From Taklimakanibacter lacteus (GTDB lineage: Bacteria; Pseudomonadota; Alphaproteobacteria; Rhizobiales; Aestuariivirgaceae): a stretch of 32,000 nucleotides of DNA. A model generated the notes under the pieces. That model was not told the origin of the DNA, searched no databases, and saw nothing but the letters and a program-made list of their open reading frames with translations. This document shows positions 802 to 20,601 of the stretch, piece after piece (the first letter of the stretch is position 1; every line of letters begins with the position of its first letter). The stretch lies in assembly GCF_003576695.1 (NCBI RefSeq), contig NZ_QOZQ01000007.1:41277-73276 (forward strand), in the 5' to 3' direction. A program made the translations under genes and the position numbers.

Positions 802-902
802 TTTGCGGTGAATGGACGGCCTATTCACCGCAAAAGAGGCGGTGAATATGCTTGTGTCTGCGGCGAATACAGGCCATAATCACCGCAGGAGATGCGGTGA
901 TT
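802..902. promoter_or_regulatory. Operator-like array: six TGCGGTGA(A/T)T boxes in the fic promoter/leader
   Basis: Boxes lie at 804-813 (fwd), 823-832 (rev), 838-847 (fwd), 859-868 (fwd, one mismatch), 878-887 (rev) and 893-902 (fwd). Two perfect inverted repeats are present. One is tttgcggtgaat(802-813)-N9-attcaccgcaaa(823-834). The other is aatcaccgca(878-887)-N5-tgcggtgatt(893-902), which abuts the fic ATG (903) and covers its SD AGGAGA (887-892). A candidate fic promoter, TTGTGT(852-857)-N17-CATAAT(875-880), sits inside the array. Confidence 0.6.
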
Positions 903-2027
903 ATGGCAACGTACTACCATCAAAGGCCGGAATGGCCGAAATTCATTTGGGATTCCAAGGCGCTCGCCGACCAGCTGGCTGCCGTCCGGCACCGCCAAGG
1001 ACGACTAATCGGCCGCATGGAGGGCCTCGGATTTCCGTTGCGCGACGAGGCCGTGCTCCAGACGCTGACGCAGGATGTCCTCAAGTCTAGTGAGATCGAG
1101 GGCGAAATCCTCGACGCCGATCAGGTGCGGTCCTCCATCGCGCGGCGGCTCGGTATGGATATCGGTGCGCTGACGCCCGCCGACCGCGACGTCGAAGGCG
1201 TCGTCGAAATGATGCTCGACGCGACGCAGAATTTCGACAAGCCCCTTATAGCCGAGCGCTTGTTCGGGTGGCATGCATCCCTGTTTCCAACCGGCTATAG
1301 CGGCATGCACAAAATCACAGTCGGAGCATGGCGAAGCGATAAATCGGGACCCATGCAGGTCGTCTCGGGACGCGTCGGCAAGGAGCGCGTGCACTATGAG
1401 GCTCCCGAAGCAGCCCGCCTTGATCAAGAAATGAAAGCGTTTCTTGAGTGGTACAACGCGGAGAGCGACATCGACCCGGTACTCAAAGCCGCGCTCGCGC
1501 ATCTTTGGTTCGTGACCATCCATCCCTTCGACGACGGCAACGGGCGTATCGCCCGCGCGATCGCCGACATGTCGCTCGCCCGATCAGAGAAAAGTCCGCA
1601 GCGCTTCTACAGTATGTCTTCGCAAATCCGCAAAGAACGGAATGCGTATTACGACATGCTGGAGGCGACGCAGAAGCAAGACAACGGCGACGTCACCCCG
1701 TGGCTGCAATGGTTCTTGGGTTGTCTCGATCGTGCATTCGAAGGCGCTGAAGAAACGCTCGCGACGGTGCTGAAGAAGGCCAAATTTTGGGAAGCGCATT
1801 CGACAGCCGACTTCAATGAGCGTCAGCGCGATATGATCAACCGCCTGTTCGACGGCTTCTACGGCAGCCTGAATACGTCGAAATGGGCAAAGATCGAAAA
1901 ATGTTCCGCCGACACGGCCTTGCGCGACATCACCGATCTCGTTGAGCGCGGCGTCCTGAAGAAGGACGCCGGCGGCGGGCGCAGCACGAGCTATTCATTA
2001 AACGAGACTTGGATCAACGAACCCTGA
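903..2027 (+). CDS. fic: Fic family protein (AMPylase-type Fic/DOC fold) with N-terminal DUF4172-like region, intramolecular inhibitory motif and C-terminal winged-helix-like tail
   Basis: Canonical Fic active-site motif HPFDDGNGRIAR at 1521-1556. Inhibitory (S/T)xxxE(G/N) motif SSEIEG at 1086-1103. N-terminus MATYYHQRPEWPKFIWD is typical of DUF4172-Fic proteins. ATG 903 with SD AGGAGA is preferred over the track start at 852. Confidence 0.9.
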   Translation: MATYYHQRPEWPKFIWDSKALADQLAAVRHRQGRLIGRMEGLGFPLRDEAVLQTLTQDVLKSSEIEGEILDADQVRSSIARRLGMDIGALTPADRDVEGVVEMMLDATQNFDKPLIAERLFGWHASLFPTGYSGMHKITVGAWRSDKSGPMQVVSGRVGKERVHYEAPEAARLDQEMKAFLEWYNAESDIDPVLKAALAHLWFVTIHPFDDGNGRIARAIADMSLARSEKSPQRFYSMSSQIRKERNAYYDMLEATQKQDNGDVTPWLQWFLGCLDRAFEGAEETLATVLKKAKFWEAHSTADFNERQRDMINRLFDGFYGSLNTSKWAKIEKCSADTALRDITDLVERGVLKKDAGGGRSTSYSLNETWINEP

Positions 2028-2038
2028 TTGAGAAGCGC

Positions 2039-5000
2039 ATGTTTGATTTTAAAACCTATCTGTCAAAGCTGGACGAGGCATTGCGCGCAAACAATGCCAC
2101 CGAGCACACACATCGGCCTGCGCTCAAGCAATTGCTTGAAGGCATAAGGGACTTGCGAGCAACCAACGAGCCGTCGCGCATCGAATGCGGGGCGCCGGAT
2201 TTCATTATCACGAAATCCACGCATACGATTGGATACATAGAGGTCAAGGACGTTGGCAAATCTCTCGATGATGCCGAGCAAGCCGATCAGTTAAAGCGTT
2301 ATCGAAAGTCGCTGTCGAATCTCATATTGAGCGACTACCTGGAATTTCGTTGGTACGTGGATGGAGAACTCCGGCAGGAAGCGCGCCTGGCAAGCAGACA
2401 AAGCAATGGAACGCTCAAAGTTGATAAGGCGGGCGTTGCTAAAGTCGAAGCCCTTCTGAATAACTTTCTCAATCAACCGCCAATCAAAATAAACGCTCCG
2501 CGCGACCTCGCGGAAAGAATGGCGCGGCTCACCCATATCGTCCGCGACATCATTGTTACGGCCTTTGAAAAGGATATCGCTTCGGATTGGGTCAAGGGTT
2601 GGCGCAAGGCATTCTCCGACGTGCTCATTGCCGATCTTGATCAGGCAAAGAATACGCCGCAGTTCGCAGATATGTTTGCGCAGACGCTTGCTTACGGAAT
2701 ATTCACGGCGCGCGTTATGGCCGATCCCGGGGCGAGATTTACGCGGGAAGAAGCGCAGCGCTTAATTCCTCGGTCCAATCCTTTCTTGAGAAACTTCTTC
2801 ATCGATATTTCCAATCCCCGGCTCGATGACGAGCCGTTCGCATGCTTTGTCGATGACCTCGTTGCTCTTCTTGGCAACACCGATATGGCCACCGTCCTTG
2901 CGAATTTTGGCCATCGCACGAAGCAAGAAGACCCGGTGGTGCACTTCTATGAAACGTTTCTGGCAGCCTACGATCCCAAGCTACGAGAAACGCGCGGTGT
3001 CTACTACACGCCGGAACCGGTGGTGAGCTATATCGTCCGGTCCGTCGATAACATTTTGAAGACCCAATTCGATTGCCCGACCGGGCTGGCCGATCAATCG
3101 ATGATTACGATCAAAAATCTTGATCAGAGCCTACGTGTCAAAGGCAAGAACAGTGAAGTCCGCAAAACAACTCAAAGTCATAAAGTCATTATTCTGGACC
3201 CGGCAACCGGCACGGGAACATTTCTCTATTCCGTCGTCGATTTTATCCGCCAACAATTCATTGCGTCGGGTAATGCCGGAATGTGGCCGGGGTATGTAAA
3301 ACGACATCTGTTGCCCCGTCTCTTTGGATTCGAATTCATGGTCGCGCCATTCGCGGTGGCGCATTTCAAACTGAGCCTGCAACTTGCCGGCCGCGACCTC
3401 GCCGAGGATATCCGCGATCAATGGGCAGTGCTTCCTGAAGGTAGCGACCGCCTCGGCGTCTTTTTGACGAATACGCTCGACGAGGCCCACGAGCACACGG
3501 CCATGCCGCTCTTTACCCAGTGGGTCGCTCAGGAGAGCGCAGCCGCAGATGCAATCAAAATGCATTCGCCTGTGCTCGTTGTCATGGGCAATCCGCCGTA
3601 CTCCGGCCACTCTGCAAACCATGGCCAGTGGATTGACGATCTTCTTCACGGGGCGGGTAAGGACAAATCGGTATCCAGCTATTATCACGTCGATGGGCAG
3701 CCGCTTGGCGAACGTAATTCTAAATGGCTTCAGGACGACTACGTTAAATTCCTTTGTTTTGGCCAATGGCGTATCGAACGCTCCGGCCAAGGGATTCTTG
3801 CCTACATCACCAACCACGGGTTCTTGAATAATCCCACGTTTCGAGGGATGCGCCAGTCATTGATGAATACGTTCTCGGAAATCCACGTCCTCGATTTGCA
3901 CGGAAGCGTAAAAAAGCGAGCGCGCAATCCGTCCGGTGAAACGGACCAAAACGTCTTTGATATTCAGCAAGGCGTTTCCATCGGAATTTTTATCAAGCAT
4001 TCAGGAAAATCAGGCCCGGCGAAGGTGTTCCATGCGGACCTTTGGGGAAGCCGCGCCGAGAAATATAATTGGTTGTTTGAAAAGGATCAGGGCTCGACGG
4101 AGTGGGAAGAACTCACTCCCCAGGCTCCGTTCTATCTCTTTAAGCCGCTGGATACGACGAGCCTCGCCGTTTATCAGGCGGCTTGGAAGATTACAGATAT
4201 CTTTCCGGTCAACGTCCTTGGATTCCAAACGCACCGTGATCATTTCGCTGTGGGATTCGATTATGCCGATATGGAGAATCGTTTTCGGGAAATGCGTTCC
4301 GCGGCGCTAAGCGACGACGAATATCGGGAGCGATTCAAGCTTCGAGATAATCGAGACTGGAATCTTGCGGATGCGCGCAAGGCTCTGAGGTCGGACGCAG
4401 ATTGGCAGCAGGGTCTGGTCGATTGCTTGTACCGGCCTTTCGATTGGCGCACGTGCTACTTTAGTGAAGTCGCAATGGACTATCCCCGCCGTGAGATTAG
4501 GCAGCACGTTTTGGGTAAGAACAATATTTGCATACTCACCTCGCGCCAGCAGGCCGATGCCGGGTTCATGCATGTTCTTTTGAGCGAAGATCCCGCGGAA
4601 AGCTGTGCGGTCTCAAACAAGACCAAAGAACAGAACTACGTGTTCCCTCTATATTTGTATCCGAGCGCAGAGGCCGATGCCGCACCCGAACTTTTGTCGC
4701 AGGCATCCGACTGGCCAGCAGACGACAGAAATGGAGGTCGCACTCCAAATCTGAAAAAGGAGTTTGTAGCCGCGATTGCCGAGGCAACCGGGCTGACCTT
4801 CGCGCCGGCTGGAGACGTTACGCAGGCCGGTCGGTTCAATCCGCCAGATGTTCTTCACTACATCTATGCCATTCTACACAGCGGCAGCTACCGTGAAACT
4901 TACTCACAGTTTCTGATGTTGGATTTTCCTCGGATCCCCGTTCCGAAATCGGCTGATGAATTCATCCAAGTTGCCCAGCTTGGCGGGCAGCTTCGTTCGC

Positions 5001-5335
5001 TGCATCTTCTAGATGACTCGGTTTCCATACCCAAGGAAGTGCGTTTTCCGGTAGCAGGCGATAACACCGTGGCGCGCGCGCATCCTAAATTTGTCATGGA
5101 AGAAGGTTCGCCATTCGGACGCGTCTACATCAATACAAGCCAGTTCTTCGACGGAATAGCCCAGGAAGCGTGGGACTTCGAAATTGGAAGCTACCAAGTA
5201 CTGGAAAAGTGGCTGAAAGATCGCCAGGGGCGCCAACTGTCTTATGATGACTTGACGCAATATCAAAAAATCCTCGGCGCGATCAATGGCACCCTCAGTG
5301 TTATGACTACCTTGGATCAAATTATCGAGTTTTAG
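2039..5335 (+). CDS. Single-chain restriction-modification-type enzyme: PD-ExK nuclease-like N-terminus, gamma-class N6-adenine DNA methyltransferase and type-ISP/MmeI-like C-terminal (target recognition) domain; no helicase domain
   Basis: N-terminal GAPDF...GYIEVKD (D at 2198-2200, ExK at 2240-2248) parallels the MmeI-type D-Xn-ExK nuclease motif. Other motifs: FYETFL..YD..R...GVYYTP; motif I ILDPATGTGTFL (from 3197); motif IV NPPY (3590-3601). The C-terminal FPRIP....GGQLRSLHLL and IGSYQVLEKWLKDRQGRQLSYDDLTQYQKI are typical of type ISP / MmeI-family C-termini. The track start at 2009 is a TTG overlapping fic by 19 nt; ATG 2039 lies 11 nt after the fic stop. Confidence 0.85.
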   Translation: MFDFKTYLSKLDEALRANNATEHTHRPALKQLLEGIRDLRATNEPSRIECGAPDFIITKSTHTIGYIEVKDVGKSLDDAEQADQLKRYRKSLSNLILSDYLEFRWYVDGELRQEARLASRQSNGTLKVDKAGVAKVEALLNNFLNQPPIKINAPRDLAERMARLTHIVRDIIVTAFEKDIASDWVKGWRKAFSDVLIADLDQAKNTPQFADMFAQTLAYGIFTARVMADPGARFTREEAQRLIPRSNPFLRNFFIDISNPRLDDEPFACFVDDLVALLGNTDMATVLANFGHRTKQEDPVVHFYETFLAAYDPKLRETRGVYYTPEPVVSYIVRSVDNILKTQFDCPTGLADQSMITIKNLDQSLRVKGKNSEVRKTTQSHKVIILDPATGTGTFLYSVVDFIRQQFIASGNAGMWPGYVKRHLLPRLFGFEFMVAPFAVAHFKLSLQLAGRDLAEDIRDQWAVLPEGSDRLGVFLTNTLDEAHEHTAMPLFTQWVAQESAAADAIKMHSPVLVVMGNPPYSGHSANHGQWIDDLLHGAGKDKSVSSYYHVDGQPLGERNSKWLQDDYVKFLCFGQWRIERSGQGILAYITNHGFLNNPTFRGMRQSLMNTFSEIHVLDLHGSVKKRARNPSGETDQNVFDIQQGVSIGIFIKHSGKSGPAKVFHADLWGSRAEKYNWLFEKDQGSTEWEELTPQAPFYLFKPLDTTSLAVYQAAWKITDIFPVNVLGFQTHRDHFAVGFDYADMENRFREMRSAALSDDEYRERFKLRDNRDWNLADARKALRSDADWQQGLVDCLYRPFDWRTCYFSEVAMDYPRREIRQHVLGKNNICILTSRQQADAGFMHVLLSEDPAESCAVSNKTKEQNYVFPLYLYPSAEADAAPELLSQASDWPADDRNGGRTPNLKKEFVAAIAEATGLTFAPAGDVTQAGRFNPPDVLHYIYAILHSGSYRETYSQFLMLDFPRIPVPKSADEFIQVAQLGGQLRSLHLLDDSVSIPKEVRFPVAGDNTVARAHPKFVMEEGSPFGRVYINTSQFFDGIAQEAWDFEIGSYQVLEKWLKDRQGRQLSYDDLTQYQKILGAINGTLSVMTTLDQIIEF

Positions 5336-5506: not shown

Positions 5507-8500
5507 TTAGATCGGCTGCGCCATCTCCAGATAACGGCAGAAGGCGTTCGCGAGCTGCATCTGCTGCGGCGTGCGGCATTCTGCCTCAAACAGCAACGGC
5601 GAGCCGACAAGGATGCAAACGCAGCGCGCTCGCGAGGTGGCAACATTCAAGCGGTTTGCACTGTAAAGAAATTCCATGCCGCGCGGCGCGTCCGCATGAC
5701 TCGAAGTGGTCATTGAATAGATGACAATCGGTGCTTCCTGCCCCTGAAACTTATCGACGGTGCCGATCCGGGCACCCAGCAAGCGATCTTGCAATTCGAA
5801 CACTTGTGCGTTGTACGGCGCAATAATCAGGATGTTGTCGAGTGCAACAGGAGCCTCTTTTCCGTCCGGCCCTATCCACGTCGCCTTCGATGCAAGAATC
5901 TCTTCGACCAAGGCCTTGATAACGTCCGCTTCCTCGGGGCTGGCGCTTTGATTGCCTTCATGCTCGACAGCCAGGTAGCGCAAGCCAGAGCCATTCACGC
6001 GGCCTTGTGACTTGACCGCCTGTTGCTGCAGGCCGGGTTTCGAGCGCAGCCTGTCTTCGTAGAACAGCTCAGAAGTGAACGAGCATATCTCCGGATGCAG
6101 CCGCCATGTTTCTTCCAAGAACAGCCCGCGGTCAGCAGTGACAGTGGCATGTTCGCCCAGGATGTGCTTGAGCGCCGATACGTCCGTTCCTTCCGGGTGA
6201 CTACCCTGCAATGGCTGTTCGAGTTGACGCGGATCGCCTAGCAGCACAATCGTCTTTGCCGCATGCGATACCGCTAGGACGTTCGCGAGCGACATCTGCG
6301 CCGCCTCGTCGACGAACAGCACGTCGAGGGTTTCGAAGGCCTCAGGGCGAGCCCAGAGCCACGACGTTCCACCGGCCACCGGACAATCGGGCCCGAGCGA
6401 GGAGAAGATTTCAGCGTTGTCGGTTGTAAGCCGAATCCCAGGAACGTCGTCCGCCTTTTCAGACAGCTTCTGGATGCTCTGAATTGGCTTGCCGTTCTGT
6501 TTGCAGGCGCGCTGAATCTCATCCAGCAGATTGCGGATGACTTTATGGCTGTTGGCCGTGATGCCGATCTTCTTTCCCGCTGCAACAAGGGCGCAAATCA
6601 TACGAGCGCCGGTGTGCGTCTTACCCGCGCCTGGAGGACCTTGAATGGGAAATGCACACGCCTCGAATGCCGGCGCGATACGAACCGCTGCGCTAAGCGT
6701 CGTCTCGTCCACGTTTCTGATCGGCTGTCCGCCGATTTTCGGCGCCTCCAATAGAAGGAGATCGCGCGCTGCCTGATAGCGTCCCGGCCTCGTCATTCCA
6801 TTTGTTATGACGTATTCGGCGATGCGGACGAGGGCCTCTGCCTGCTCCTCCGTTCCAATCACCTTGTGCGAGAAAACTGCTTCCGGGTGCAGTGAAGCCG
6901 TATCCTTCCGCTTCTTGATGTCTACCGTGCGGTCGTCAAGAGAGATCGCATCGATTTTTCCGAACGGCTTCCCTCCAACCGATCGCAGGTCCTCGTCGCC
7001 ACGCAATTCCGTTTCCTGCGCCGGGAAACCGTAGCGGTGAATAGGCGCTTTCGCCGTTCCTCCAACGTTGTCGACGAAGATCAGGCCGGAGATCGCAGCC
7101 CGCTCGTCGAGCAAATCCTCTGCTGACAAGGCTGACAGGCGGAAATACTCCCACCAGGTCGCCTTTATTTCGCGGCCGTGGAAATCCAGAACGTTGCCCA
7201 GAAGCCAGCGTGCATGCTCTTCCGTCGTCCGATCGGCCACATCGACAGGAACCGCCTGCGTCAGGCTTTCGACGAGCGGAGCGATGCGCTGCTGCCATGC
7301 GGTCAGCTTTTCGCTTGCGTCACCGCTCTTGGCTTCAGGACGGTCTATCGTCGCGCCTCCTGTGACGAGTTCGGCCCGCAATCCTTCGAGCCAATCACGC
7401 AGGGCCCACGCCGACAAACAATCATCTTTGTTGTAGGCGTCGACGGCCTTGCGATCGGCATCTTCTATGCCCTGGACATCGCCGAGCTCAAGGCAGGCCT
7501 GGACCTTGGCAAGTATCTTTCCGGCGTCGGACAGATCCTGCGCGCGCTTATATTCGTAAAGCGGCTCCAGCTTCTTGATGGAATAGCTCTCGACGCTGGC
7601 GCGGATGCTGTGGCGGATCACAGCGAACAGGTCGACAAGCACGCCGCTACGCAGCAAGCGATCGAGTTCTTCTTCGCGCGTCGCATATCGGCCCATGAGG
7701 CGCTTCAAGGCGGCAGGTTCGTACGGCGCGAAGTGATAGATGTGCAGGGCTGGGTATGTTTTGAGCCGATCAAAGACGAAGTCGACGAACCGCTCAAAAG
7801 CCGCTCTTTCTTCGGCGGGAGTGAACGACCATTCCGCACGATGCTGCGCTTGTCCGCTTTCGTTCTGATAGGCATAGCCGAACAGGAATTCGAGCCCGCC
7901 GCCCCGCACGAAGGGATCGCCTTCAAGGTCGAAGAAGATGTCTCCCGGCGACGGTTCGGGCAGACAACAAAGCCCGAACCCGGGCTGAATCGGCAAGGCT
8001 TCATGAATGACCTTACCTTCCGTCCGTCCCTTGACCTGCATCCGCGCCTGCTCGCGAATTTTCTCGTAGCTCTGAGTGGCGCCACGATCCGGTTTCCACG
8101 GCCAGGGCAGAGCAACTTCCGCCAGCTTCGCTGTCGTGCCGACATCATGGCGTTTCAGTTCGCCAATCTGGCTTTTCGAGATTCCCGCGACAAGCGAGAG
8201 GTGATCGTCCTTGCGTCGTTTCCCATCGCAATGCTGCCGCCACCGGCAAATGTCGCAGTGCGGATTTGGGTCGGGATAGAGATCGCCGCCCGCGCCGTTA
8301 TCGACGGAGTGTTCGAGGCTGCGGCGCACGCGGCGGTAATAGGCCGAATAATCTGTCGTGCGATAGATTTCCGGTTCAAAGCCCGTCTCGGGCGTAACGA
8401 CGTAGCTAAATTCGGGTAGCCTCTTCTGCACCGATGAAAGCAGCGCCGCATACAGCGAAAGCTGCAGGACCGTGCCGCCCTTGGTCTCCTTGGCAAGCTT

Positions 8501-8947
8501 GGTGTCGACGACTTCATAAGACCAGGCGCCGAAGACGCTTGGCTTCTCGACGCGGCGAAGCACGTCAGCCCTTCCGCTCCATCGGCCGTCCTGAAGTGCA
8601 GCCTGGACAACAATGGGTACGCCAGCCCTCATGGCCGCGACGGTCTTATCCACGGCATCCGTTTCGACGCCGATTCCGTCGATCGGGATGATCTCATCTC
8701 CCTGCCCTTTGAGATGATCGATGTACGCCTTTTCATGCTGCGCGCCGCGTTCCGCCAGGATTTCCAAAACAGGGTCCCAAACCGACGGCTTCACGATTTC
8801 GCCGCGCGCGACCGCGAGATCGAGCGCGGTCAGGTAGCGGCAGTTGAGATGCCCTACGAGATCGCTCGCCGTAAGATGGATCGTTTCGCCGCCCTTGCGC
8901 ATCAACGCCACGCTAGTGCAACCGGGGCGTGCCCCGCAACTCGGCAC
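5507..8947 (-). CDS. Fusion protein: Cas4/RecB-like PD-(D/E)xK nuclease with Cys4 cluster (TM0106-family-like), RNase-H-fold exonuclease-like module and SF1 Upf1/Dna2-like helicase (AAA_11/AAA_12 type)
   Basis: Nuclease motifs: GRADVL, YEVVDTKLAKE, QLSLY (QxxxY). Cysteines: LNC near the N-terminus plus CDICRWRQHC (8228-8257). Exonuclease-like motifs: IFFDLEGDPF, IYHFAPYEPAALKRL, SYSIKKLEPLY. Helicase motifs: Walker A GPPGAGKTHT (6611-6640), DEAAQ, LLGDPRQLEQP, WRLHPEI, VDKFQGQE, LNVATSRAR. The track start 8947 is a GTG; ATG 8902 (MRKGGETIHLTASDL) is an equally plausible start. Confidence 0.85.
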   Translation of the reverse strand: MPSCGARPGCTSVALMRKGGETIHLTASDLVGHLNCRYLTALDLAVARGEIVKPSVWDPVLEILAERGAQHEKAYIDHLKGQGDEIIPIDGIGVETDAVDKTVAAMRAGVPIVVQAALQDGRWSGRADVLRRVEKPSVFGAWSYEVVDTKLAKETKGGTVLQLSLYAALLSSVQKRLPEFSYVVTPETGFEPEIYRTTDYSAYYRRVRRSLEHSVDNGAGGDLYPDPNPHCDICRWRQHCDGKRRKDDHLSLVAGISKSQIGELKRHDVGTTAKLAEVALPWPWKPDRGATQSYEKIREQARMQVKGRTEGKVIHEALPIQPGFGLCCLPEPSPGDIFFDLEGDPFVRGGGLEFLFGYAYQNESGQAQHRAEWSFTPAEERAAFERFVDFVFDRLKTYPALHIYHFAPYEPAALKRLMGRYATREEELDRLLRSGVLVDLFAVIRHSIRASVESYSIKKLEPLYEYKRAQDLSDAGKILAKVQACLELGDVQGIEDADRKAVDAYNKDDCLSAWALRDWLEGLRAELVTGGATIDRPEAKSGDASEKLTAWQQRIAPLVESLTQAVPVDVADRTTEEHARWLLGNVLDFHGREIKATWWEYFRLSALSAEDLLDERAAISGLIFVDNVGGTAKAPIHRYGFPAQETELRGDEDLRSVGGKPFGKIDAISLDDRTVDIKKRKDTASLHPEAVFSHKVIGTEEQAEALVRIAEYVITNGMTRPGRYQAARDLLLLEAPKIGGQPIRNVDETTLSAAVRIAPAFEACAFPIQGPPGAGKTHTGARMICALVAAGKKIGITANSHKVIRNLLDEIQRACKQNGKPIQSIQKLSEKADDVPGIRLTTDNAEIFSSLGPDCPVAGGTSWLWARPEAFETLDVLFVDEAAQMSLANVLAVSHAAKTIVLLGDPRQLEQPLQGSHPEGTDVSALKHILGEHATVTADRGLFLEETWRLHPEICSFTSELFYEDRLRSKPGLQQQAVKSQGRVNGSGLRYLAVEHEGNQSASPEEADVIKALVEEILASKATWIGPDGKEAPVALDNILIIAPYNAQVFELQDRLLGARIGTVDKFQGQEAPIVIYSMTTSSHADAPRGMEFLYSANRLNVATSRARCVCILVGSPLLFEAECRTPQQMQLANAFCRYLEMAQPI

Positions 8948-9029
8948 TGAATTTTTCGGCTAATTTCATGTTCGTGCGCGTCGACCGCACCCGGCCGACC
9001 GGGCTCTCGTGAACGGAGCCACGCGAACG

Positions 9030-9097
9030 CTTTGTCTCCGCCATCTGGCTTCGATCCTTCGCGCAAATTTTCCGACCGCTGCCGGAGCCACCCGCTG
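9030..9097 (+). repeat. Direct repeat copy B (5' flank/leader of the nuclease-helicase gene)
   Basis: See copy A. The core is 9030-9067 and the looser extension runs to about 9097. Orientation is the same as copy A. Confidence 0.75.
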
Positions 9098-9151
9098 TAG
9101 CACTTGAAGCGGCCGTATTGGACGCCCCTGATGAAGCCTTGCGAGACCTTC

Positions 9152-9446: not shown

Positions 9447-9674
9447 TTAGCGTTGCGTCGTGCGTTTCTCTTTTGTGAAGCCCTTGTCTGTCGCCATGAA
9501 GCGCTGGAGCATCGGCGCGACCAGCTTGGCCGGATCGGGTGGTGCCGCCTCGCCAGAGGTCCGGGCGAGAATCTCCGCGTAGGCGACAAGATCGCGATGA
9601 ACGGCAGCCGGCAGCTCGATGGTGATCTTGACCGGTTTATCGTCGGGGATGGCAGAGAGTCTCAGCTTGGTCAT
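9447..9674 (-). CDS. DUF2274-like small protein that follows trbI in Trb-type ICE operons
   Basis: 75 aa (MTKLRLSAIPDDKPVKITIELPAAVHRDLVAYAEIL...). ATGA overlap with the trbI stop (9671-9674). Position and sequence style match the conserved post-trbI ORF. Confidence 0.8.
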   Translation of the reverse strand: MTKLRLSAIPDDKPVKITIELPAAVHRDLVAYAEILARTSGEAAPPDPAKLVAPMLQRFMATDKGFTKEKRTTQR

Positions 9675-10879
9675 GACGGCTCCTTCGCGGCGCCGTAGGG
9701 CTGCATCACCAAGTCGCGATTCACGATGATGCGGACCGGGAAACCCGGCCGCACCGTGAGCGTCGGCTGGACGTTGAGCTGGCGGCGCACGATCTGCTGG
9801 CCGACGTCGGAGGCGGAATCCTGTGCGCTTTCGCGAATGGCGCGCGCGATCTCGCTCTCGTTGTCAATCGAGAGCTGGGTGCCGACACCGAGCAACGTCG
9901 AGAGCGCTGCGGCACGGAAGAGCTGACCCCAGTGATAGTCCACCTCGTCCTCGAGCCCGGAATATCCGCCGGCGTCGGCTCCCTGAAGGCGTTCCAGCAC
10001 GATCGACGTGCCGTTGGGCATGACGACACGATTCCAGACCAAGAGAACCCTGGATTGCCCGAACGCGACCTGACTGTCGTACTGGCCGATGAGCCGCGCA
10101 CCCTGAGGGATGAGAAGGTGCTTGCCGCTCGGGCTGTCATAGACGTGCTCCGTCACCTGCGCGGTGATCTGGCCGGGCAGATCGGAGTTGATGCCGGTGA
10201 TGAGCGCGGCGGGAATGATGGTGCCCGCCTGCACGACATGTGGCGAGGCTTTCTCCTGCACGCGGTCGGGACTGACCGTGCGCCGATCGGCCGCTGCGTT
10301 GACGAAAGCGAGCTTGCGGTCCTGCATGTTCTGCCTGGCGCCCGGATCGAGCGGCGGCGTCTCGGTCTGCAGCGTCAGGCCGGTCGGATCAATACGGGTG
10401 GCATCAGGCGTGGCCGGTCGGGTGTCCGGCGCTTGCGCACCGCGGCTGTCGGTGAACACCTTCGCGACACGCGCCGACTCGATCTCGGCAAGGCGACGCT
10501 GTTCTTCCGGGTCGGCGCGTGGTGTTCGAACATCCGGCGCGATCACGGGACGGCCTTGCTCCTGCGCGCGCAGGATCGGTCGGCCGAGGTCTCCCGGCAG
10601 CGCCGGGCCAAGCTGCGGAACCCCGGAATAGTCCTTGGGCAGGCCGGCCAGCCCGTCGGCCGCGGTGCGGTTTTCAGTGTTGTAGAGTTCGGTCGTGGGC
10701 TGCTTGGCACGACGATTGCTGTCGAGTGCCCAAACGAGCGCGCCGAGGATGGCGACGGCGCTGACGCCGCCCAGGCCGATCAGCACTTTTCGGGAGAGGC
10801 GCGTGACGCGCGGCGGCTCCGGCCGCAAGCGGAGCTCGGCGCGGATGTCGCCGGAAGGCGGATTTGGCGCATCGGTCAT
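9671..10879 (-). CDS. trbI: Conjugal transfer protein TrbI (VirB10 family)
   Basis: 402 aa with an N-terminal TM segment, a Pro-rich linker and a conserved C-terminal VirB10 core (GTIIPAALITGINSDLPGQITAQV..., RIIVNRDL). ATGA overlap with trbG. Confidence 0.93.
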   Translation of the reverse strand: MTDAPNPPSGDIRAELRLRPEPPRVTRLSRKVLIGLGGVSAVAILGALVWALDSNRRAKQPTTELYNTENRTAADGLAGLPKDYSGVPQLGPALPGDLGRPILRAQEQGRPVIAPDVRTPRADPEEQRRLAEIESARVAKVFTDSRGAQAPDTRPATPDATRIDPTGLTLQTETPPLDPGARQNMQDRKLAFVNAAADRRTVSPDRVQEKASPHVVQAGTIIPAALITGINSDLPGQITAQVTEHVYDSPSGKHLLIPQGARLIGQYDSQVAFGQSRVLLVWNRVVMPNGTSIVLERLQGADAGGYSGLEDEVDYHWGQLFRAAALSTLLGVGTQLSIDNESEIARAIRESAQDSASDVGQQIVRRQLNVQPTLTVRPGFPVRIIVNRDLVMQPYGAAKEPS

Positions 10880-11925
10880 CGGAACAGCCCCGCGCTGCGT
10901 CCCGGCCTGCCGTCCATGCGGACGATCCGTACGCGCCGCTCGCTGTCCTTGTCGCCGAGGCGCAGTTCGGCCGCAGCAAACAGCCGGTCGACGACATAAT
11001 AGTTCTGGCGCGCGCGGTAGTTGACCAGCTCGGAATTACCGGACGGGCCGATGACGAAGAGCGGCGGCATCTCGCCCTGGCCGATACCGGACGGAAACTC
11101 AATATAGACCTTGCTGCCATCGTCGAAGGCGCGGAGCGGCCGCCACGGCGCGCTGTCGCCCTCGATCGCATAGCGAAAGTTGAGTTTGGAGATGTCGACG
11201 CCGGTGGCCACCGGCTGCATCAACGCGGCCTGCGTGTTCTGCCGGCGCAGCGCGATCAACTGGTCCTGCGGATACTGCCACGAGACTGACGCCATGTAGG
11301 TCTTCTCGGTCGAGCGCAGCTCCATGTGATAGGTACGCAGATTGGTGTTGATCACGAGATTAGTCTGAAGGTCCGGCCGCGTCGGCTTGACGAGGATATG
11401 GACCTGCTGGTTTTGGCCGGAGCCGCTGACGGTGTCGCCGACGATCCATCGCACGGTGTCGCCCGCCGCGACGGGACCGGAACCGACGAGCTGCTCGCCG
11501 GGCTGCAAGGCGATGTCCGTGACCTGGCCGGGCGCGGCGTAGACCTGATAGAGCGCGCCGGCCGCGAAGGGATAGACCTGCACCGCGTTGATGAAACCGT
11601 TGCGGACCGGTTGCATGCGTGCGGCTTCGTTGGCTTGCGCGATGCGCGCCTTAGGATCGGTGGGCTCGGGCTTCTGTTTGGCCGAATCGACTGGCTTCAA
11701 CTGGCCGGGCAGCGGCAGCGGCTTCGGCAACTCGACCACCTTCACCGGACCGACCGGATCTGCGCTCAGCACGGCGGGCGCCGCGTCGTCGTAGTCGATG
11801 TCCGGCGGAATGAATTTGTTGGCACAGCCGCCGAGCGCCGTTGTCGACACCATTAGTGCGATCAACGCGAGTGAACGACGGCCTGCTCTTGCATACCTGC
11901 ATCTCTTCCCTGCCCCATCCATCAT
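10876..11925 (-). CDS. trbG: Conjugal transfer protein TrbG (VirB9 family), lipoprotein-type signal
   Basis: The start is reset to ATG 11925 (MMDGAGK...LALIALMVSTTALGGC lipobox), which forms ATGA with the trbF stop. VirB9-like core motifs: YQVYAAPGQVTDIALQPGE, LRTYHMELRS. The 477-aa track ORF is an upstream extension through trbF. Confidence 0.92.
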   Translation of the reverse strand: MMDGAGKRCRYARAGRRSLALIALMVSTTALGGCANKFIPPDIDYDDAAPAVLSADPVGPVKVVELPKPLPLPGQLKPVDSAKQKPEPTDPKARIAQANEAARMQPVRNGFINAVQVYPFAAGALYQVYAAPGQVTDIALQPGEQLVGSGPVAAGDTVRWIVGDTVSGSGQNQQVHILVKPTRPDLQTNLVINTNLRTYHMELRSTEKTYMASVSWQYPQDQLIALRRQNTQAALMQPVATGVDISKLNFRYAIEGDSAPWRPLRAFDDGSKVYIEFPSGIGQGEMPPLFVIGPSGNSELVNYRARQNYYVVDRLFAAAELRLGDKDSERRVRIVRMDGRPGRSAGLFR

Positions 11926-12608
11926 CCCATCTCCTTCGACCAGTTGATTGCATTGACAAACACACCCAGCGGATTGGCGCGCAGCCTGTCGGCGGTGCGC
12001 GGCTGCTGGATCACGACGGTGAGAATGGCGGTCCAGCGTTCGGTCGCCGCGAGTTGCCCGTTCTCGTAGCGTCGTTCCTGCCAGGCGATGCGGAAGGAGT
12101 CCGGCGAGGCGCGGATGACGCTGGAGATCTCGATCGCGATCTGCTGCTTGCCGACCTTCGTGAAGGGATCGTTGGCGCGCGCGTAGTCGTTCAGCGCGAT
12201 GGCGCCGCGATCGGTCGCGTAGTCGTAGGCGCGCAGCCAGTTTTGGCGCACGATGACCGGATCGGCCGGAATGCTCCGGACTTGCTCGACGAAGCGCGCG
12301 AGATGCCACGCGATCTGCGGATCAGTCGGCCTGTAGTCGGCAACAGCCGACGCCACGGCCTGTGCTTCGCCGAACTTGTCGACCTGCACGACCCAGGGAA
12401 CGACGGTGCCTTGCGTCGATTGCCAGACCAGCGCGACAGCAAAGCCGCCGGCGAGCGTAAGCGAGCCGAAGGCCATGAGCCGCCAGTTCGCCGCCTGGAC
12501 GCGGGCGGAGCCGATCCGCTCGTCCCAGGCTTGTGCTGCACGTTGATAGGGGGTCTCGGGTTCGGGCGTGCGCGCGTAACGCACGGAGGGTCGTCTGAAG
12601 AGATTCAT
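11922..12608 (-). CDS. trbF: Conjugal transfer protein TrbF (VirB8 family)
   Basis: The start is reset to ATG 12608 (MNLFRRPSVRYART...), which forms ATGA with the trbL stop. Single TM segment (WRLMAFGSLTLAGGFAVALVW) followed by a VirB8-like domain. Confidence 0.92.
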   Translation of the reverse strand: MNLFRRPSVRYARTPEPETPYQRAAQAWDERIGSARVQAANWRLMAFGSLTLAGGFAVALVWQSTQGTVVPWVVQVDKFGEAQAVASAVADYRPTDPQIAWHLARFVEQVRSIPADPVIVRQNWLRAYDYATDRGAIALNDYARANDPFTKVGKQQIAIEISSVIRASPDSFRIAWQERRYENGQLAATERWTAILTVVIQQPRTADRLRANPLGVFVNAINWSKEMG

Positions 12609-13981
12609 CGGCGGTCGTCCTGATCGAGTGAGACATTCATGGAGCCGCCGCCGTGATCGCCGGAGCGGATCGCGTGGGCGGCGGCAGTGGCGCCGTGGCT
12701 CATGGTCTGGCCGCGCTTCATTCGAGTGGCCCAAGCCGGCGGGGCCGAGGACGCAGAAGCACCAGCAGAGAAAGCATTGCCAGCGGCCGAGGCCGAACCG
12801 GCGGCTGGCGACGTGCCGCCGGTTGCGGTCCATGCACCGGCCCGGCCGGCGCGGTAGCTGGAGCGAAGGGAGTCGGCGGCGCGCGACATGGCCTGCCGCA
12901 CGGGCTGGACCGCAGCCGATGCGCCCGCCTTTGCGACGCCGCCGAGGCCGGCGGCCACGGCGCCCATGCCGCCCTGCCCTGACGTGGATGCCGCAAGGCC
13001 ATAGGCGGTCGACGTGCTGCCGGCGAGATGCGCGCCGCCGCGCGCGGCAGCCGCTGTCATGCGTGCGCCGGCTCCGGCGACGCTCGCCGCGCCGCCCAAG
13101 CCTGCGCTCGCTCCCATGACCCCGGCCGCCCCGATGCCGGCGACGGCGAGGCCGGTGCCAACCGCCGCCCCTGCGCTGAGCTGCGGGGCACCGGAGACGA
13201 GGCCGGTGGCGATGCCGGGACCGAAGATCGACAAGCCCATCAGCGACAGGGCGCCGAGCACAAGCGCCAGTGCGTCGGTGATCGTCGGCGATCCGGAGAA
13301 GCCGGATGTGAACTCACCAAACAGGCCGGAGCCGATGCCGACGATGACGGCAAGCACCAATATCTTGACGCCGGAGGCGACGATGTTGCCCAGCACCTTC
13401 TCAGCGAGGAACGCGGTCTTGTTGAACAGCGCGAATGGGATCAGCACGAAGCCCGCAAGCGTCGTCAATTTGAACTCGATCAGGCTGATGAAGATCTGGA
13501 CTGCGAGGATGAAGAAGGCGATCAGCACGATCGCCCAGGCGATCATCAACACCATGATCTGCACGAAGTTCTCGAAGAAGGAGATGTAGCCCATCAGGTC
13601 GCCGGCGGCCTTGAGGATGGGATTGCCGGCGTCGATGCCGACCTGCGCGACGCGGCCGGGCTGGAGCAGATCGGACGCCGAGAGCGACGATCCACCGGCC
13701 TTGAGACCAAGCCCGCTGAAGGATTGGAAGACGATGCCGGCAAGCCGGTTGAAATTGCCGATGATGAACGCGAAGAAGCCGATATAGAGCGTCTTCTTGA
13801 TGAGCCGCTGAAGCACATCCTCGTCGGCGCCCCAGGCCCAGAACAGGCCAGCGAGCGTGATGTCGATGACGATCAGCGTCGACGTCAGGAACGCGACCTC
13901 GCCGCCGAGCAGGCCGAATCCGCTATCGATGTAGCTCGTGAAGGTTTCGAGGAAGCGATCGATGACGCCGGTATTGTTCAT
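12605..13981 (-). CDS. trbL: Conjugal transfer protein TrbL (VirB6 family)
   Basis: The start is reset to ATG 13981 (MNNTGVIDRFLETFTSYIDSGFGLL), which forms ATGA with the trbK-alt stop. Polytopic membrane core followed by a long Ala/Gly/Ser-rich C-terminal tail. Confidence 0.92.
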   Translation of the reverse strand: MNNTGVIDRFLETFTSYIDSGFGLLGGEVAFLTSTLIVIDITLAGLFWAWGADEDVLQRLIKKTLYIGFFAFIIGNFNRLAGIVFQSFSGLGLKAGGSSLSASDLLQPGRVAQVGIDAGNPILKAAGDLMGYISFFENFVQIMVLMIAWAIVLIAFFILAVQIFISLIEFKLTTLAGFVLIPFALFNKTAFLAEKVLGNIVASGVKILVLAVIVGIGSGLFGEFTSGFSGSPTITDALALVLGALSLMGLSIFGPGIATGLVSGAPQLSAGAAVGTGLAVAGIGAAGVMGASAGLGGAASVAGAGARMTAAAARGGAHLAGSTSTAYGLAASTSGQGGMGAVAAGLGGVAKAGASAAVQPVRQAMSRAADSLRSSYRAGRAGAWTATGGTSPAAGSASAAGNAFSAGASASSAPPAWATRMKRGQTMSHGATAAAHAIRSGDHGGGSMNVSLDQDDRR

Positions 13982-14250
13982 GGGCGCGGCCGCTCCCCTG
14001 CCCCGCCGAGGAAATGGCGGCGGCTGTCGGACCAGGCTTTCCTGCACGCAGGATCGTCGAGGGCGGCCGCGCCGATGTCGCGGCAGCGAACCAGTTCGCT
14101 GGATGCGGGCTCGTCGCCCCGAGGTTGAACGGTCTGGGCGGGAGCATCCTCGGTGCGGTCCGGGCGCAGCGCGATGGCGCACGCGGCCATAACGGCGGCG
14201 AATGCGAGGACGGCGAGCATCCGGGTAGCGATCTTCATATCCATGCCCAC
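13978..14250 (-). CDS. trbK: Small lipoprotein in the TrbK position (TrbK-alt-like putative entry-exclusion protein)
   Basis: About 86-90 aa. Signal peptide with a Cys lipobox (LAVLAFAAVMAAC) and conserved Cys pair (RCR...DPAC). It lies between trbJ and trbL. The start could be 14250, 14244 or 14238. Confidence 0.7.
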   Translation of the reverse strand: MGMDMKIATRMLAVLAFAAVMAACAIALRPDRTEDAPAQTVQPRGDEPASSELVRCRDIGAAALDDPACRKAWSDSRRHFLGGAGERPRP

Positions 14251-14254
14251 GCCC

Positions 14255-17496: not shown

Positions 17497-17505
17497 CGGC
17501 GCACC

Positions 17506-19099: not shown

Positions 19100-19289
19100 C
19101 CCGCCCCCATTCCAGCCATCCGCAAGACGGTCGGATGGCGACGGGGACAATCAAGAAAGGCAGGAATGGCACGCGGGCAACAGGATTTATTTGAAAATTC
19201 GTACTTCGTCGTAGCTCATCGTAGGGCGTCGAAAAAATACTTGAAGTGTTCGGCGCTGCTAGCGATTTCCGTTACGGCTTGAGAACAGA

Positions 19290-20575: not shown

Positions 20576-20601
20576 ATACCGAATTGGTGGAGATACGCAT
20601 A

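What the first reader, a model, noticed from the sequence alone, without database searches (positions are those of the whole stretch)
5507..8947. Three-module nuclease / exonuclease-like / SF1-helicase protein (Nhi-like logic with a Cas4-type Fe-S nuclease)
One polypeptide carries a RecB/Cas4-type nuclease (D, ExK-like DTK, QxxxY, plus C...CxxCx5C, a Cas4-like four-Cys pattern). It also carries an RNase-H-fold DxE module (FFDLEGDPF) and a complete Upf1/Dna2-like SF1 helicase motif set. Nuclease-helicase fusions with AAA_11/AAA_12 motors recur in characterised defence proteins such as Nhi and Mokosh-type helicases. As far as I know, the TM0106-type nuclease family itself has no assigned function. 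Its position convergent to an R-M-type gene and next to an ICE transfer operon fits an anti-MGE role.
Basis: partly seen in the sequence, partly recalled or inferred. Interest (0 to 1): 0.7.

Follow-up and report, generated by a model that had tools for sequence, protein, structure and literature searches.

The report
Dna2-like nuclease–exonuclease–helicase, candidate defence gene
This gene encodes one large enzyme that joins an iron-sulfur DNA nuclease, a 3'-5' exonuclease-like domain and a DNA-unwinding motor; it is a typical member of a large but biologically uncharacterised family, and in this lineage it moves as a single gene between anti-phage defence islands on mobile elements.

Summary
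Window 5507-8902 (- strand) encodes a 1131-aa protein; the real start is the ATG at 8902, not the GTG at 8947. It has a Cas4/Dna2-type PD-(D/E)XK nuclease with four invariant Cys, a PF13482 RNase H-fold exonuclease-like domain with conserved acidic and Tyr residues, a stalk plus beta-barrel, and a complete Upf1/Dna2-like SF1B helicase.

It is a clear member of TIGR03491/COG2251 ("TM0106 family"). That family is large and keeps a length of about 1130 aa across many phyla. Dna2 is the best solved structural match. The purified G. stearothermophilus Bad enzyme has the same nuclease-central domain-helicase order.

There is no conserved partner gene. Homologues at 91-92% identity sit in three unrelated defence islands (SoFic + type IIG R-M here; GmrSD/Mrr/RES-Xre; Wadjet-like). 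Others sit beside Azaca/Zorya, Shango or type I R-M. At least 59 plasmids carry a full-length copy and no phage does.

A distant mycobacterial clade sits in conserved core synteny (probably Rv1251c), and neighbours in distant clades are mostly metabolic.

Verdict: a stand-alone Dna2-like enzyme and a plausible single-gene anti-MGE effector in this lineage. This is unproven, and it is not a member of Nhi or Mokosh. Moderate interest.

The parts
5507..8902 (-). CDS of the 1131-aa nuclease/exonuclease-like/helicase protein (stop codon 5507-5509; likely start ATG 8900-8902)
   Evidence: ORF list and translation. Homologues of about 1131 aa align from this Met. TIGR03491, AAA_11 and AAA_12 hits.
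8207..8902 (-). Residues 1-232: Cas4/Dna2-type 'iron-staple' PD-(D/E)XK nuclease. Catalytic D113, D133-T-K135, Q147xxxY151. Cys ligands C21 (8840-8842), C216, C219, C225 (8228-8257).
   Evidence: Pfam PDDEXK_1 and weak Cas4 hits. Conserved residues. AF2 model with pLDDT about 90 in the core. Foldseek hits to type I-C Cas4 8D3L (TMt 0.57), Cas4-Cas1 7MI4, ACE1 9IAB and Dna2 5EAN.
7958..8206 (-). Residues 233-315: helical linker with invariant D233, H234, V238, A239, Q285, A286, Q289; function unassigned
   Evidence: Conservation. Helices 243-295 in the AF2 model. Lies inside the TIGR03491 match.
7358..7957 (-). Residues 316-515: RNase H-fold (PF13482, YprB/PolB-exonuclease-like) domain, predicted 3'-5' exonuclease. 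D325-x-E327 (7922-7930), Y394-E395, D424, Y490-x3-D494.
   Evidence: Pfam RNase_H_2 E 7e-16. Conservation. The strand and helix order in the AF2 model fits my reading of a DnaQ-type fold. PF13482/COG2251 is placed in the 3'-5' exonuclease clade by PMC3985635. No solved structure was detectable by sequence profile.
6659..7357 (-). Residues 516-748: stalk helices plus a beta-barrel (strands about 603-678) and connecting helices; accessory region of a Upf1/Dna2-like helicase
   Evidence: AF2 model. Foldseek alignment of the N-terminal model to IGHMBP2 4B3G (216 columns, E 8e-3) and to Dna2 over 775 columns. Stalk plus OB/barrel is described as a hallmark of the UPF1/DNA2-like family in PMC11090510. 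Assignment is inferred, with moderate confidence.
5510..6658 (-). Residues 749-1131: SF1B (Upf1/Dna2-like) helicase core. Motif I GPPGAGKT 755-762 (6617-6640), II DEAAQ 865-869, III GDPRQL 889-894, WRLHP 933-937, V TVDKFQGQE 1048-1056, VI NVATSRA 1086-1092.
   Evidence: Pfam AAA_11, AAA_12, AAA_30. PDB sequence hits to SETX, IGHMBP2, UPF1, Dna2 and Sen1. Foldseek top hit Dna2 5EAN, E 5.5e-16. Invariant motifs.
8903..9075 (-). About 170 bp directly upstream of the start codon that travels with the gene (putative promoter/5' UTR of the mobile unit)
   Evidence: This stretch is conserved with the 91%-identical homologue's locus L095, whereas everything further upstream differs.
2009..5335 (+). 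Neighbour, convergent: self-contained type IIG restriction enzyme-methyltransferase (context, not a partner)
   Evidence: Pfam N6_Mtase + Type_ISP_C. PADLOC REase_MTase_IIG E 2.8e-271. Only 23% identical to the IIG-like enzyme near the closest homologue.
852..2027 (+). Neighbour: DUF4172-Fic protein matching the SoFic defence family (context)
   Evidence: Pfam. PADLOC SoFic E 1.6e-50 over the full length.
9447..19150 (-). Neighbour: ICE/plasmid-type mating-pair-formation operon (TrbB, VirB3-like, TrbE, TrbL, CagX/TrbG, TrbI), ending with DUF2274 (9447-9674)
   Evidence: Pfam T2SSE, VirB3, CagE_TrbE_VirB, TrbL, CagX, TrbI, DUF2274. Mesorhizobium plasmid match annotated DUF2274/TrbI.

Best explanation
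The gene encodes a stand-alone bacterial Dna2-like enzyme of the TM0106/COG2251 family.

Likely mechanism (inferred from Dna2 and Bad, not shown here):
1. The protein binds a 5' single-stranded tail or flap at a single-strand/duplex junction.
2. It threads the strand past the Fe-S-stabilised PD-(D/E)XK nuclease.
3. The SF1B motor moves it 5' to 3' using ATP, unwinding duplex DNA and cutting the strand it tracks.
4. The extra exonuclease-like domain, which Dna2 lacks, would degrade 3'-ended DNA such as the displaced strand. One polypeptide could then destroy both strands of a DNA end or a replication/transfer intermediate.

Biological role: in this lineage the gene plus about 170 bp of upstream DNA moves as a single unit between defence islands on ICEs, plasmids and integrase islands. 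I therefore think it most likely acts as a single-gene anti-MGE nuclease-helicase. That would be functionally analogous to Nhi/Hna-type helicase-nucleases or to RecBCD's degradation of foreign DNA. It would target ssDNA-rich or end-containing intermediates of invading phage or plasmid DNA.

Shown: domain identity, conservation of catalytic residues, lack of a conserved partner, genomic context.
Inferred: polarity, substrates, Fe-S cluster, exonuclease activity, defence phenotype, and how self DNA is spared.
For: Architecture and active sites.

Structure:
- The N-terminal 748 aa model has pLDDT 87.5.
- Its PDB matches are Dna2, Cas4, Cas4-Cas1, ACE1 and IGHMBP2.
- The full-length model's best PDB match is Dna2 5EAN, aligned across nuclease and helicase.

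Biochemical precedent: Bad has an iron-staple nuclease (D150), a central domain and an SF1B helicase (K815). It contains iron and is an ssDNA endonuclease and a 5'-3' translocase/helicase that prefers 5' overhangs (PMC7430649).

Single-gene unit: across 72 loci the commonest neighbour family occurs in only 9. Among 104 neighbours there are 100 different Pfam families.

Defence context:
- Window: SoFic + type IIG.
- 91% homologue: GmrSD, IIG-like, Mrr, RES-Xre, ArdC, integrase.
- 92% homologue: Wadjet-like genes + E2/E1/JAB.
- Rhodoplanes: between Azaca and Zorya I.
- Bradyrhizobium: directly after Shango.
- Another homologue: after type I R-M and a ubiquitin-like operon.
- PADLOC hits among neighbours include Shango, BrxHI, Wadjet, HmaC and BrxD.
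- A WYL-WCX regulator lies directly upstream in 5 loci, and McrBC is nearby in 3.

Mobility: 69 plasmid records, 59 with a full-length copy, 26 of them conjugative; no full-length copy in 50,697 phage records. GC of the left 9 kb (0.52-0.60) is below that of the trb core (0.64-0.69).
Against: - No family member has a reported phage or plasmid phenotype, and the gene matches no defence model over its full length.
- The mycobacterial clade (31-34% identity, same architecture) sits in conserved core synteny. It appears to be Rv1251c, which is co-transcribed with lprE.
- Neighbours of distant clades are mostly metabolic genes.
- ATP-dependent DNA ligase/LigD genes occur near 3 of 34 loci, which fits repair.
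- Defence islands also hold non-defence cargo.
- No mechanism for self/non-self discrimination is evident.
- I could not obtain the Bad sequence, so homology to Bad, as opposed to the same layout, is untested.
- Foldseek listed no solved DEDD exonuclease among its top 50 PDB hits for the central domain. The exonuclease assignment therefore rests on Pfam, the motifs and topology.
Confidence: 0.55

Rival explanations
1. It is a DNA repair or end-processing enzyme, a bacterial functional counterpart of Dna2. It would resect or trim flaps, gaps or breaks for recombination or end joining. Its presence on mobile elements would simply reflect accessory repair cargo.
For: Dna2 is the best structural match. 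The mycobacterial orthologues lie in conserved core synteny and are highly conserved (82-99% within the genus). ATP-dependent ligase/LigD neighbours occur in 3 of 34 loci and SbcCD-like genes lie next to it on pSF1. Distant-clade neighbourhoods are mostly metabolic. STRING links rv1251c to repair genes (PMC10609372; weak evidence).
Against: Distribution outside Actinobacteria is patchy. Homologues at 91-92% identity occupy three unrelated defence islands. Neighbours recur as Shango, Azaca, Zorya, Wadjet, R-M and McrBC. The gene is frequent on plasmids. No SOS box is conserved upstream.
Confidence: 0.25
2. It serves the mobile element itself. It might process transferred single-stranded DNA, help establishment in the recipient, or attack competing plasmids or ICEs, rather than defend against phage.
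For: It lies immediately downstream of the T4SS operon both here (trbI-DUF2274) and on Sphingobium pSF1 (virB9-11/T4CP). At least 59 plasmids carry a full-length copy and 26 of the matching records are conjugative. An ssDNA-specific 5'-3' motor-nuclease would suit conjugative T-strand DNA.
Against: Most of the 72 loci have no conjugation genes nearby. It also occurs in non-mobilisable plasmids and chromosomal islands. The unit that moves is the gene alone.
Confidence: 0.12
3. It is the motor/nuclease subunit of a multi-gene restriction-like system together with the adjacent methyltransferase-containing gene. This is what was proposed for Bad and its neighbouring type III-like Mod.
For: The Bad paper reports a neighbouring methyltransferase in all Geobacilli examined and proposes a novel restriction enzyme (PMC7430649). 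Here a methylase-containing gene is convergent 172 bp away. An IIG-like gene also lies 3.5 kb from the closest homologue.
Against: The neighbour is a complete type IIG enzyme that needs no partner. The orientation is convergent, so the two are not an operon. The two IIG enzymes are only 23% identical. No methyltransferase recurs among neighbours in 72 loci.
Confidence: 0.05

Closest known systems
TM0106 family RecB-like putative nuclease (NCBIfam TIGR03491; COG2251; RNase H-like family F.13 of Majorek et al. 2014)
   Same: Full-length match to the family HMM well above cutoff. Same Cas4-like nuclease plus PF13482 domain. The fusion to tandem 'AAA' (AAA_11/AAA_12) helicase domains was already noted for COG2251. 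Hundreds of homologues of about 1130 aa carry this name.
   Different: Nothing structural. The family name describes only the N-terminal half, and the family has no established biological role.
Bad, the bacterial Dna2-like helicase-nuclease of Geobacillus stearothermophilus (Wilkinson et al. 2020, PMC7430649)
   Same: Same module order and similar spacing: iron-staple nuclease (motif III D150 against D133 here), conserved central domain, SF1B helicase (Walker A K815 against K761). Bad is a monomeric single polypeptide. The authors describe a second class in Mycobacteria, and this family has mycobacterial members.
   Different: Bad is 1245 aa. Its central domain was reported to have no detectable homology, whereas here it is a clear PF13482 domain. 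Bad is annotated 'AAA+ ATPase'. Bad neighbours a type III-like Mod, which is not seen here. Sequence homology could not be tested because the Bad sequence was unobtainable with these tools.
Eukaryotic Dna2 (PDB 5EAN)
   Same: Best solved structural match, spanning nuclease and helicase. Four-Cys Fe-S PD-(D/E)XK nuclease N-terminal to a stalk/barrel and an SF1B motor. Sequence similarity in the helicase C-terminal half.
   Different: Dna2 has no RNase H-fold exonuclease-like domain. TM-score is low (0.26). Dna2 is an essential replication/repair factor, whereas this gene is an accessory, horizontally moving gene.
Nhi (nuclease-helicase immunity, Staphylococcus) and Hna
   Same: Single-polypeptide nuclease plus helicase defence logic. 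Both are described as sensing phage replication intermediates or SSB (PMC10732053; the detailed Nhi domain layout is from my own memory).
   Different: No Nhi or Hna model appears among the PADLOC or NCBIfam hits. The nuclease type differs (Cas4/Dna2 Fe-S plus an exonuclease-like domain). No phenotype is known.
Mokosh MkoA/MkoC helicases
   Same: The helicase C-terminal half scores E 8e-43 (MkoA) and 4e-29 (MkoC). Both are Upf1-like SF1 motors.
   Different: The match covers only residues about 858-1124. There is no PLD nuclease and no MkoB partner, and the N-terminal 750 aa are unrelated.
CRISPR Cas4 and the Argonaute-associated Cas4-like ACE1
   Same: The nuclease domain fold and the four-Cys pattern.
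   Different: The TIGR00372 score of 18.7 is far below its cutoff of 65. No cas or Argonaute genes were found among the ORFs I annotated. The protein is much larger and multi-domain.

Membership tests
TM0106 family (TIGR03491/COG2251) | Score above the curated HMM cutoff over the whole model | tested here: met
   246.3 bits against a cutoff of 97.45; residues 11-505 match model positions 2-462 of 462.
TM0106 family (TIGR03491/COG2251) | Cas4-like PD-(D/E)XK domain followed by a PF13482 RNase H-fold domain | tested here: met
   Pfam PDDEXK_1 and RNase_H_2. Conserved D113, D133, K135, Q147, Y151 and D325, E327, Y490, D494.
Iron-staple (Fe-S) RecB-family nucleases (AddB, Dna2, Cas4, Bad) | Four conserved Cys spanning the domain (one N-terminal, three C-terminal as CxxCx5C) plus nuclease motifs | tested here: met
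   C21, C216, C219 and C225 are invariant in A1 and A2. Fold matches Cas4 and Dna2.
Iron-staple (Fe-S) RecB-family nucleases (AddB, Dna2, Cas4, Bad) | An Fe-S cluster actually bound | not testable with these tools
   Needs UV-vis or EPR spectroscopy, or an iron assay, on purified protein.
Upf1/Dna2-like SF1B helicases | AAA_11/AAA_12 domains with motifs I, Ia, II, III, IV, V and VI | tested here: met
   Pfam hits above gathering scores. Motif residues invariant. PDB hits to UPF1, IGHMBP2, Sen1, SETX and Dna2.
Upf1/Dna2-like SF1B helicases | Stalk helices plus OB/beta-barrel accessory domain | tested here: inconclusive
Upf1/Dna2-like SF1B helicases | 5'-3' translocation polarity | not testable with these tools
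   Inferred from the family and from Bad.
Bad (bacterial Dna2-like enzyme) | Order: N-terminal Fe-S nuclease, conserved central domain, C-terminal SF1B helicase in one polypeptide | tested here: met
   Layout and spacing compared with published residue numbers D150, K815 and 1245 aa.
Bad (bacterial Dna2-like enzyme) | Sequence homology to WP_053413574 | not testable with these tools
   The sequence is not in the paper's text or the held supplement. No Geobacillus locus was among the 80 returned.
Bad (bacterial Dna2-like enzyme) | Neighbouring type III-like Mod methyltransferase | tested here: not met
   The neighbour here is a type IIG enzyme. No recurrent methyltransferase was found in 72 loci.
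Nhi | Match to a Nhi family model | tested here: not met
   No Nhi hit at E up to 0.1 in PADLOC or NCBIfam. I could not verify that a Nhi model is in these libraries, so this carries limited weight.
Mokosh | Full-length MkoA/MkoC match with a PLD nuclease (fused, or as MkoB) | tested here: not met
   Only the helicase C-terminal half matches. No PLD domain in the protein or its neighbours.
CRISPR Cas4 | TIGR00372 score above cutoff and cas gene neighbourhood | tested here: not met
   18.7 bits against a cutoff of 65. No cas genes among the annotated neighbours.
Anti-phage defence system (generic) | Enrichment next to known defence genes | tested here: inconclusive
   Association is strong in the proteobacterial clade: 7 of 12 annotated non-mycobacterial contexts have recognised systems within 10 kb. 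It is absent in Mycobacterium and weak in distant clades. No background control was computed.
Anti-phage defence system (generic) | Experimental protection phenotype | not testable with these tools
   No report was found in the searchable literature.

The most novel reading that the evidence does not exclude
The proteobacterial branch of the TM0106/COG2251 helicase-nucleases may be an unrecognised, widespread single-gene immune system. It would combine a Dna2-like 5'-3' motor-nuclease with a 3'-5' exonuclease to destroy both strands of ssDNA-tailed replication or conjugation intermediates of invading elements. In some lineages it would be under WYL-type regulators. The mycobacterial Rv1251c clade would then be a domesticated repair or immunity version of the same machine.
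Probability: 0.4. Interest if true: 0.65.

Novelty: new variant of a known kind. Interest (0 to 1): 0.5.

Why it matters
If the defence role is real, it would add a widespread single-gene system to the catalogue. At least 150 clusters at 50% identity are full length or nearly so, and the family is present on ICEs and plasmids of rhizobia, sphingomonads, Piscirickettsia and others. Its enzymology would be unusual: two nucleases of opposite polarity on one SF1B motor.

It would also give a biological role to the Bad/'bacterial Dna2' enzymes, whose function their discoverers left open. It would suggest a function for the uncharacterised M. tuberculosis gene Rv1251c.

If the role is instead repair, the family shows how a Dna2-like end-processing enzyme spreads on mobile elements. 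Either way the gene is a clean, partner-free target for expression and phage or plasmid challenge.

Tried and rejected
- Literature searches for TM0106, TIGR03491, PF13482 + helicase + defence, and Cas4-like + Upf1-like found nothing.
- I could not obtain the Bad sequence. Homology to Bad stays untested.
- SOS regulation was rejected. A perfect alphaproteobacterial-type GAAC-N7-GAAC lies 461 bp upstream (9348-9362). Two such sites in the window against 1.1 expected is not significant. Only 3 of 72 loci (this window included) have any of the searched box types upstream. It also lies outside the 170 bp that travels with the gene.
- Partnership with the adjacent R-M gene was rejected.
- A conserved partner gene of any kind was rejected.
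- The exact protein is not on record in the contig index, so the window's own wider context could not be extended.
- The full-length AF2 model was mediocre (pLDDT 70.6, pTM 0.49). I did not interpret inter-domain geometry. I remodelled residues 1-748 with a deeper alignment instead.
- The promoter/terminator scan around the gene was at chance level.

Full report
**What is there.** The - strand ORF 5507..8947 translates to a protein whose homologues all start at the Met encoded at 8902. The CDS is therefore most likely 5507-8902, 1131 aa. Pfam finds PDDEXK_1 (107-226), RNase_H_2/PF13482 (322-505, E 7e-16), AAA_11 (750-803) and AAA_12 (917-1101, E 3e-27). NCBIfam places residues 11-505 in TIGR03491, 'TM0106 family RecB-like putative nuclease', at 246 bits against a cutoff of 97.

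**Conservation.** I aligned 29 close homologues (64-84% identity), 25 diverse ones (37-67%) and 63 that include mycobacterial sequences at 31-32%.
- Invariant in the diverse set: C21, C216, C219, C225, D133, Q147, Y151, D325, the Walker A GPPGxGK, DE 865-866, Q893, R934, Q1053, G1054 and R1091.
- Conserved in at least 90% of that set: D113, K135, E327, E395, D424, Y490 and D494.
- So all three catalytic modules, plus an iron-staple Cys tetrad, are under purifying selection. None looks degenerate.

**Structure.**
- The full-length AF2 model was mediocre (pLDDT 70.6, pTM 0.49). Its best PDB match was still Dna2 5EAN (E 5.5e-16), aligned over both nuclease and helicase. UPF1, IGHMBP2, Sen1 and SETX followed.
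- Remodelling residues 1-748 with a deeper alignment gave pLDDT 87.5 and pTM 0.74.
- That model matches Dna2, type I-C Cas4 (8D3L, TMt 0.57), Cas4-Cas1 fusions and Argonaute-associated ACE1 for the nuclease. It matches IGHMBP2 for residues about 520-748.
- Residues 516-748 form stalk helices plus a beta-barrel. This is the accessory element described for the whole UPF1/DNA2-like family (PMC11090510). The '250-600 unknown region' therefore resolves into a helical linker, the PF13482 domain, and the start of the helicase accessory region.
- The strand and helix order of the PF13482 domain fits my reading of a DnaQ/PolB-exonuclease topology. D325/E327 lie on strand 1, Y394/E395 at helix B, D424 after strand 5, and Y490/D494 in the last helix. 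Majorek et al. place PF13482/COG2251 in the 3'-5' exonuclease clade. They also note its fusion to a Cas4-like domain and tandem AAA domains (PMC3985635).
- Giant-virus 'YprB RNase H-like' proteins match 518-794 columns of the N-terminal model. The nuclease plus RNase H-fold pair is thus an older unit.

**Family size and spread.**
- A full scan of 1.84 billion cluster representatives gave 3445 hits at E <= 1e-30. The top 150 are nearly all full-length proteins of about 1130 aa.
- Genome loci come from Alpha-, Beta- and Gammaproteobacteria, Acidobacteriota, Bacteroidota, Chloroflexota, Actinomycetota, Myxococcota, Verrucomicrobia, Legionella and others.
- 69 plasmid records carry the gene, 59 of them full length and 26 conjugative. 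No phage record has a full-length copy.

**Is there a partner gene?** I called ORFs around 72 loci and clustered all neighbours.
- The commonest neighbour family is present in 9 of 72 loci (DEAD helicases, including Shango SngC).
- The next is a WYL-WCX regulator, directly upstream in 5 loci. McrBC occurs in 3.
- Pfam scans of 104 and 123 neighbours gave 100 and 111 different families, none in more than 4 proteins.
- The gene is a stand-alone unit.
- The upstream region of the window aligns with that of the 91%-identical homologue only over about 170 bp before the start codon. The mobile unit is the gene plus a short leader.

**Context in the window.**
- 852-2027 is a DUF4172-Fic protein matching SoFic (E 1.6e-50).
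- 2009-5335 is a complete type IIG restriction-methylase (E 2.8e-271). It is convergent with the gene, with a 172-bp gap.
- On the other side, on the same strand, lies a trb-type mating-pair-formation operon that ends with trbI and DUF2274 (9447-19150). Beyond it are LysR and transporter cargo.
- GC of the left 9 kb (0.52-0.60) is lower than that of the trb core (0.64-0.69). This suggests separately acquired cargo at the end of an ICE-like element. The element's boundaries are outside the window or were not identified, and there is no tRNA gene.

**Context of relatives.**
- 91% identity: ArdC, integrase, then the gene, GmrSD, an IIG-like enzyme (only 23% identical to the window's), Mrr and RES-Xre.
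- 92% identity: a Wadjet-like cluster and an E2/E1/JAB gene.
- 84% identity: type I R-M, an M78/HTH pair, and a ubiquitin-like/E1/BubE operon that ends 8 bp before the gene.
- 80% identity: an integrase island.
- Rhodoplanes: between Azaca (ZacABC) and Zorya I.
- Bradyrhizobium: directly after Shango and near an IS91 element.
- Sphingobium pSF1: after the T4SS, with HEPN, DUF3883, a divergent WYL regulator, SbcCD-like genes and an R-M pair.
- PADLOC hits among the first 104 neighbours include Shango, BrxHI, Azaca, Wadjet, HmaC and BrxD.
- By my count, 7 of 12 annotated non-mycobacterial contexts have recognised defence systems within 10 kb. I did not compute a background rate.

**Counter-evidence.**
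- The mycobacterial clade has the same architecture and name, at 31-34% identity. It sits in a conserved core neighbourhood: DeaD, LprE-like lipoprotein, the gene, an MFS transporter, an unknown gene, then 2-oxoglutarate dehydrogenase.
- From my memory of the H37Rv map this is Rv1253, Rv1252c, Rv1251c, Rv1250, Rv1249c, Rv1248c. [quoted passage not shown] I did not have the Rv1251c sequence, so the equation is inferred from synteny.
- Neighbours in the distant clades are mostly metabolic. ATP-dependent ligase/LigD genes occur near 3 of 34 loci.

**Known relatives.**
- The closest characterised enzyme by layout is Bad from G. stearothermophilus (1245 aa). It has an iron-staple nuclease (D150), a 'central conserved domain' of unknown function and an SF1B helicase (K815).
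- Bad binds about 3 Fe per monomer. It is an ssDNA-dependent ATPase, a Mg-dependent ssDNA endonuclease and a 5'-3' translocase/helicase that positions itself on 5' overhangs. Its authors note a second class in Mycobacteria. Because of a neighbouring methyltransferase, they speculate that Bad belongs to a new kind of restriction enzyme (PMC7430649).
- I could not retrieve the Bad sequence, so membership is untested.
- PADLOC hits (MkoA, MkoC, DpdJ) cover only the helicase half. No Nhi, Hna or other defence model covers the protein. NCBIfam anti-phage models (ProA, Hhe, PLuB) hit only the P-loop or helicase stretches, far below their cutoffs.

**Mechanism proposed.** I reason by analogy with Dna2 and Bad. 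The enzyme would load on 5' ssDNA tails or flaps and thread the strand through the Fe-S nuclease. It would translocate 5'-3' and cut the tracked strand. The exonuclease-like domain would trim 3' ends such as the displaced strand. In this lineage the likely job is degradation of invading DNA intermediates. How self DNA is spared is unknown. Candidates are substrate specificity for foreign replication or transfer intermediates, and induction by WYL regulators in some lineages.

**Verdict.** The gene is a bona fide member of a known but biologically uncharacterised family, and is best described as a Dna2/Bad-like helicase-nuclease with an added exonuclease-like domain. A defence role is the leading hypothesis for this clade (about 0.55). 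A repair role is the main rival (about 0.25). Interest is moderate, at 0.5.

Noticed in passing
window 9348-9362 (- strand): A perfect GAAC-N7-GAAC (GAACAAAATAAGAAC), the form I recall for alphaproteobacterial LexA boxes, lies in the AT-rich spacer between DUF2274 and the helicase gene, just upstream of a small ORF. Two matches in the window against 1.1 expected is not significant. It is not conserved upstream of homologues and lies outside the 170-bp leader that moves with the gene.
   Followed up: partly
window 9152-9196: A perfect 22-bp tandem duplication (GCCTCCAATCGCCACTACATCA x2) lies in the spacer upstream of the gene. It appears to interrupt a small - strand ORF that begins MSESERLDMAVDQAIAAHDGDPRRTIRS.
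   Followed up: no
window 852-5335 (+ strand): The SoFic-like Fic gene (852-2027) overlaps the start of the type IIG restriction-methylase ORF (2009-5335) by 19 bp on the same strand. This suggests a SoFic plus type IIG two-gene operon.
   Followed up: partly
L004 8022-9992 (homologue P0003 context): A Multi_ubiq / DUF6791-ThiF (E1) / BubE operon ends 8 bp before the start of the 84%-identical homologue, on the same strand. The same arrangement appears in three independent contigs. The helicase-nuclease could be co-transcribed with, or be an effector of, this bacterial ubiquitin-like system in that lineage.
   Followed up: no
L092/L093 (Mycobacterium paraseoulense and relatives), 7340-20323: The mycobacterial orthologue lies in conserved core synteny: DeaD, LprE-like lipoprotein, gene, MFS, unknown, 2-oxoglutarate dehydrogenase. 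This corresponds, by inference, to M. tuberculosis Rv1251c, reported as co-transcribed with lprE.
   Followed up: partly
BFVD hits to model m3bed47e1c6a3: Giant viruses (Faunusvirus, CroV, Yasminevirus, Sylvanvirus, a Megaviridae sample) encode 471-892-aa proteins that match 518-794 columns of the N-terminal model (TMq 0.35-0.44). The Cas4-like plus YprB RNase H-like pair therefore also occurs in nucleocytoplasmic large DNA viruses.
   Followed up: no
L091 (Sphingobium pSF1) 6913-7896; L018, L041, L043, L044, L085 upstream genes: An HTH-WYL-WCX regulator (BrxR/CapW-like) lies directly upstream of the gene, usually divergent, in the subfamily at roughly 34-48% identity. McrBC pairs are adjacent in several of the same loci.
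   Followed up: partly
window 19290-30628: Upstream of trbB, the element carries a LysR regulator, two fused ABC exporter genes, a TonB-dependent receptor, a PepSY-TM protein and an ABC-2 transporter set. This looks like siderophore or metal-uptake cargo.
   Followed up: no
L089 (Ensifer adhaerens plasmid pCTYH.Ch1_3) 1134-7989: Directly upstream of the 61%-identical homologue, on the same strand and next to repABC, lie a 184-aa hypothetical gene, a 1071-aa 'helicase-related protein' and a 1034-aa hypothetical protein. This may be another uncharacterised defence-like cassette.
   Followed up: no
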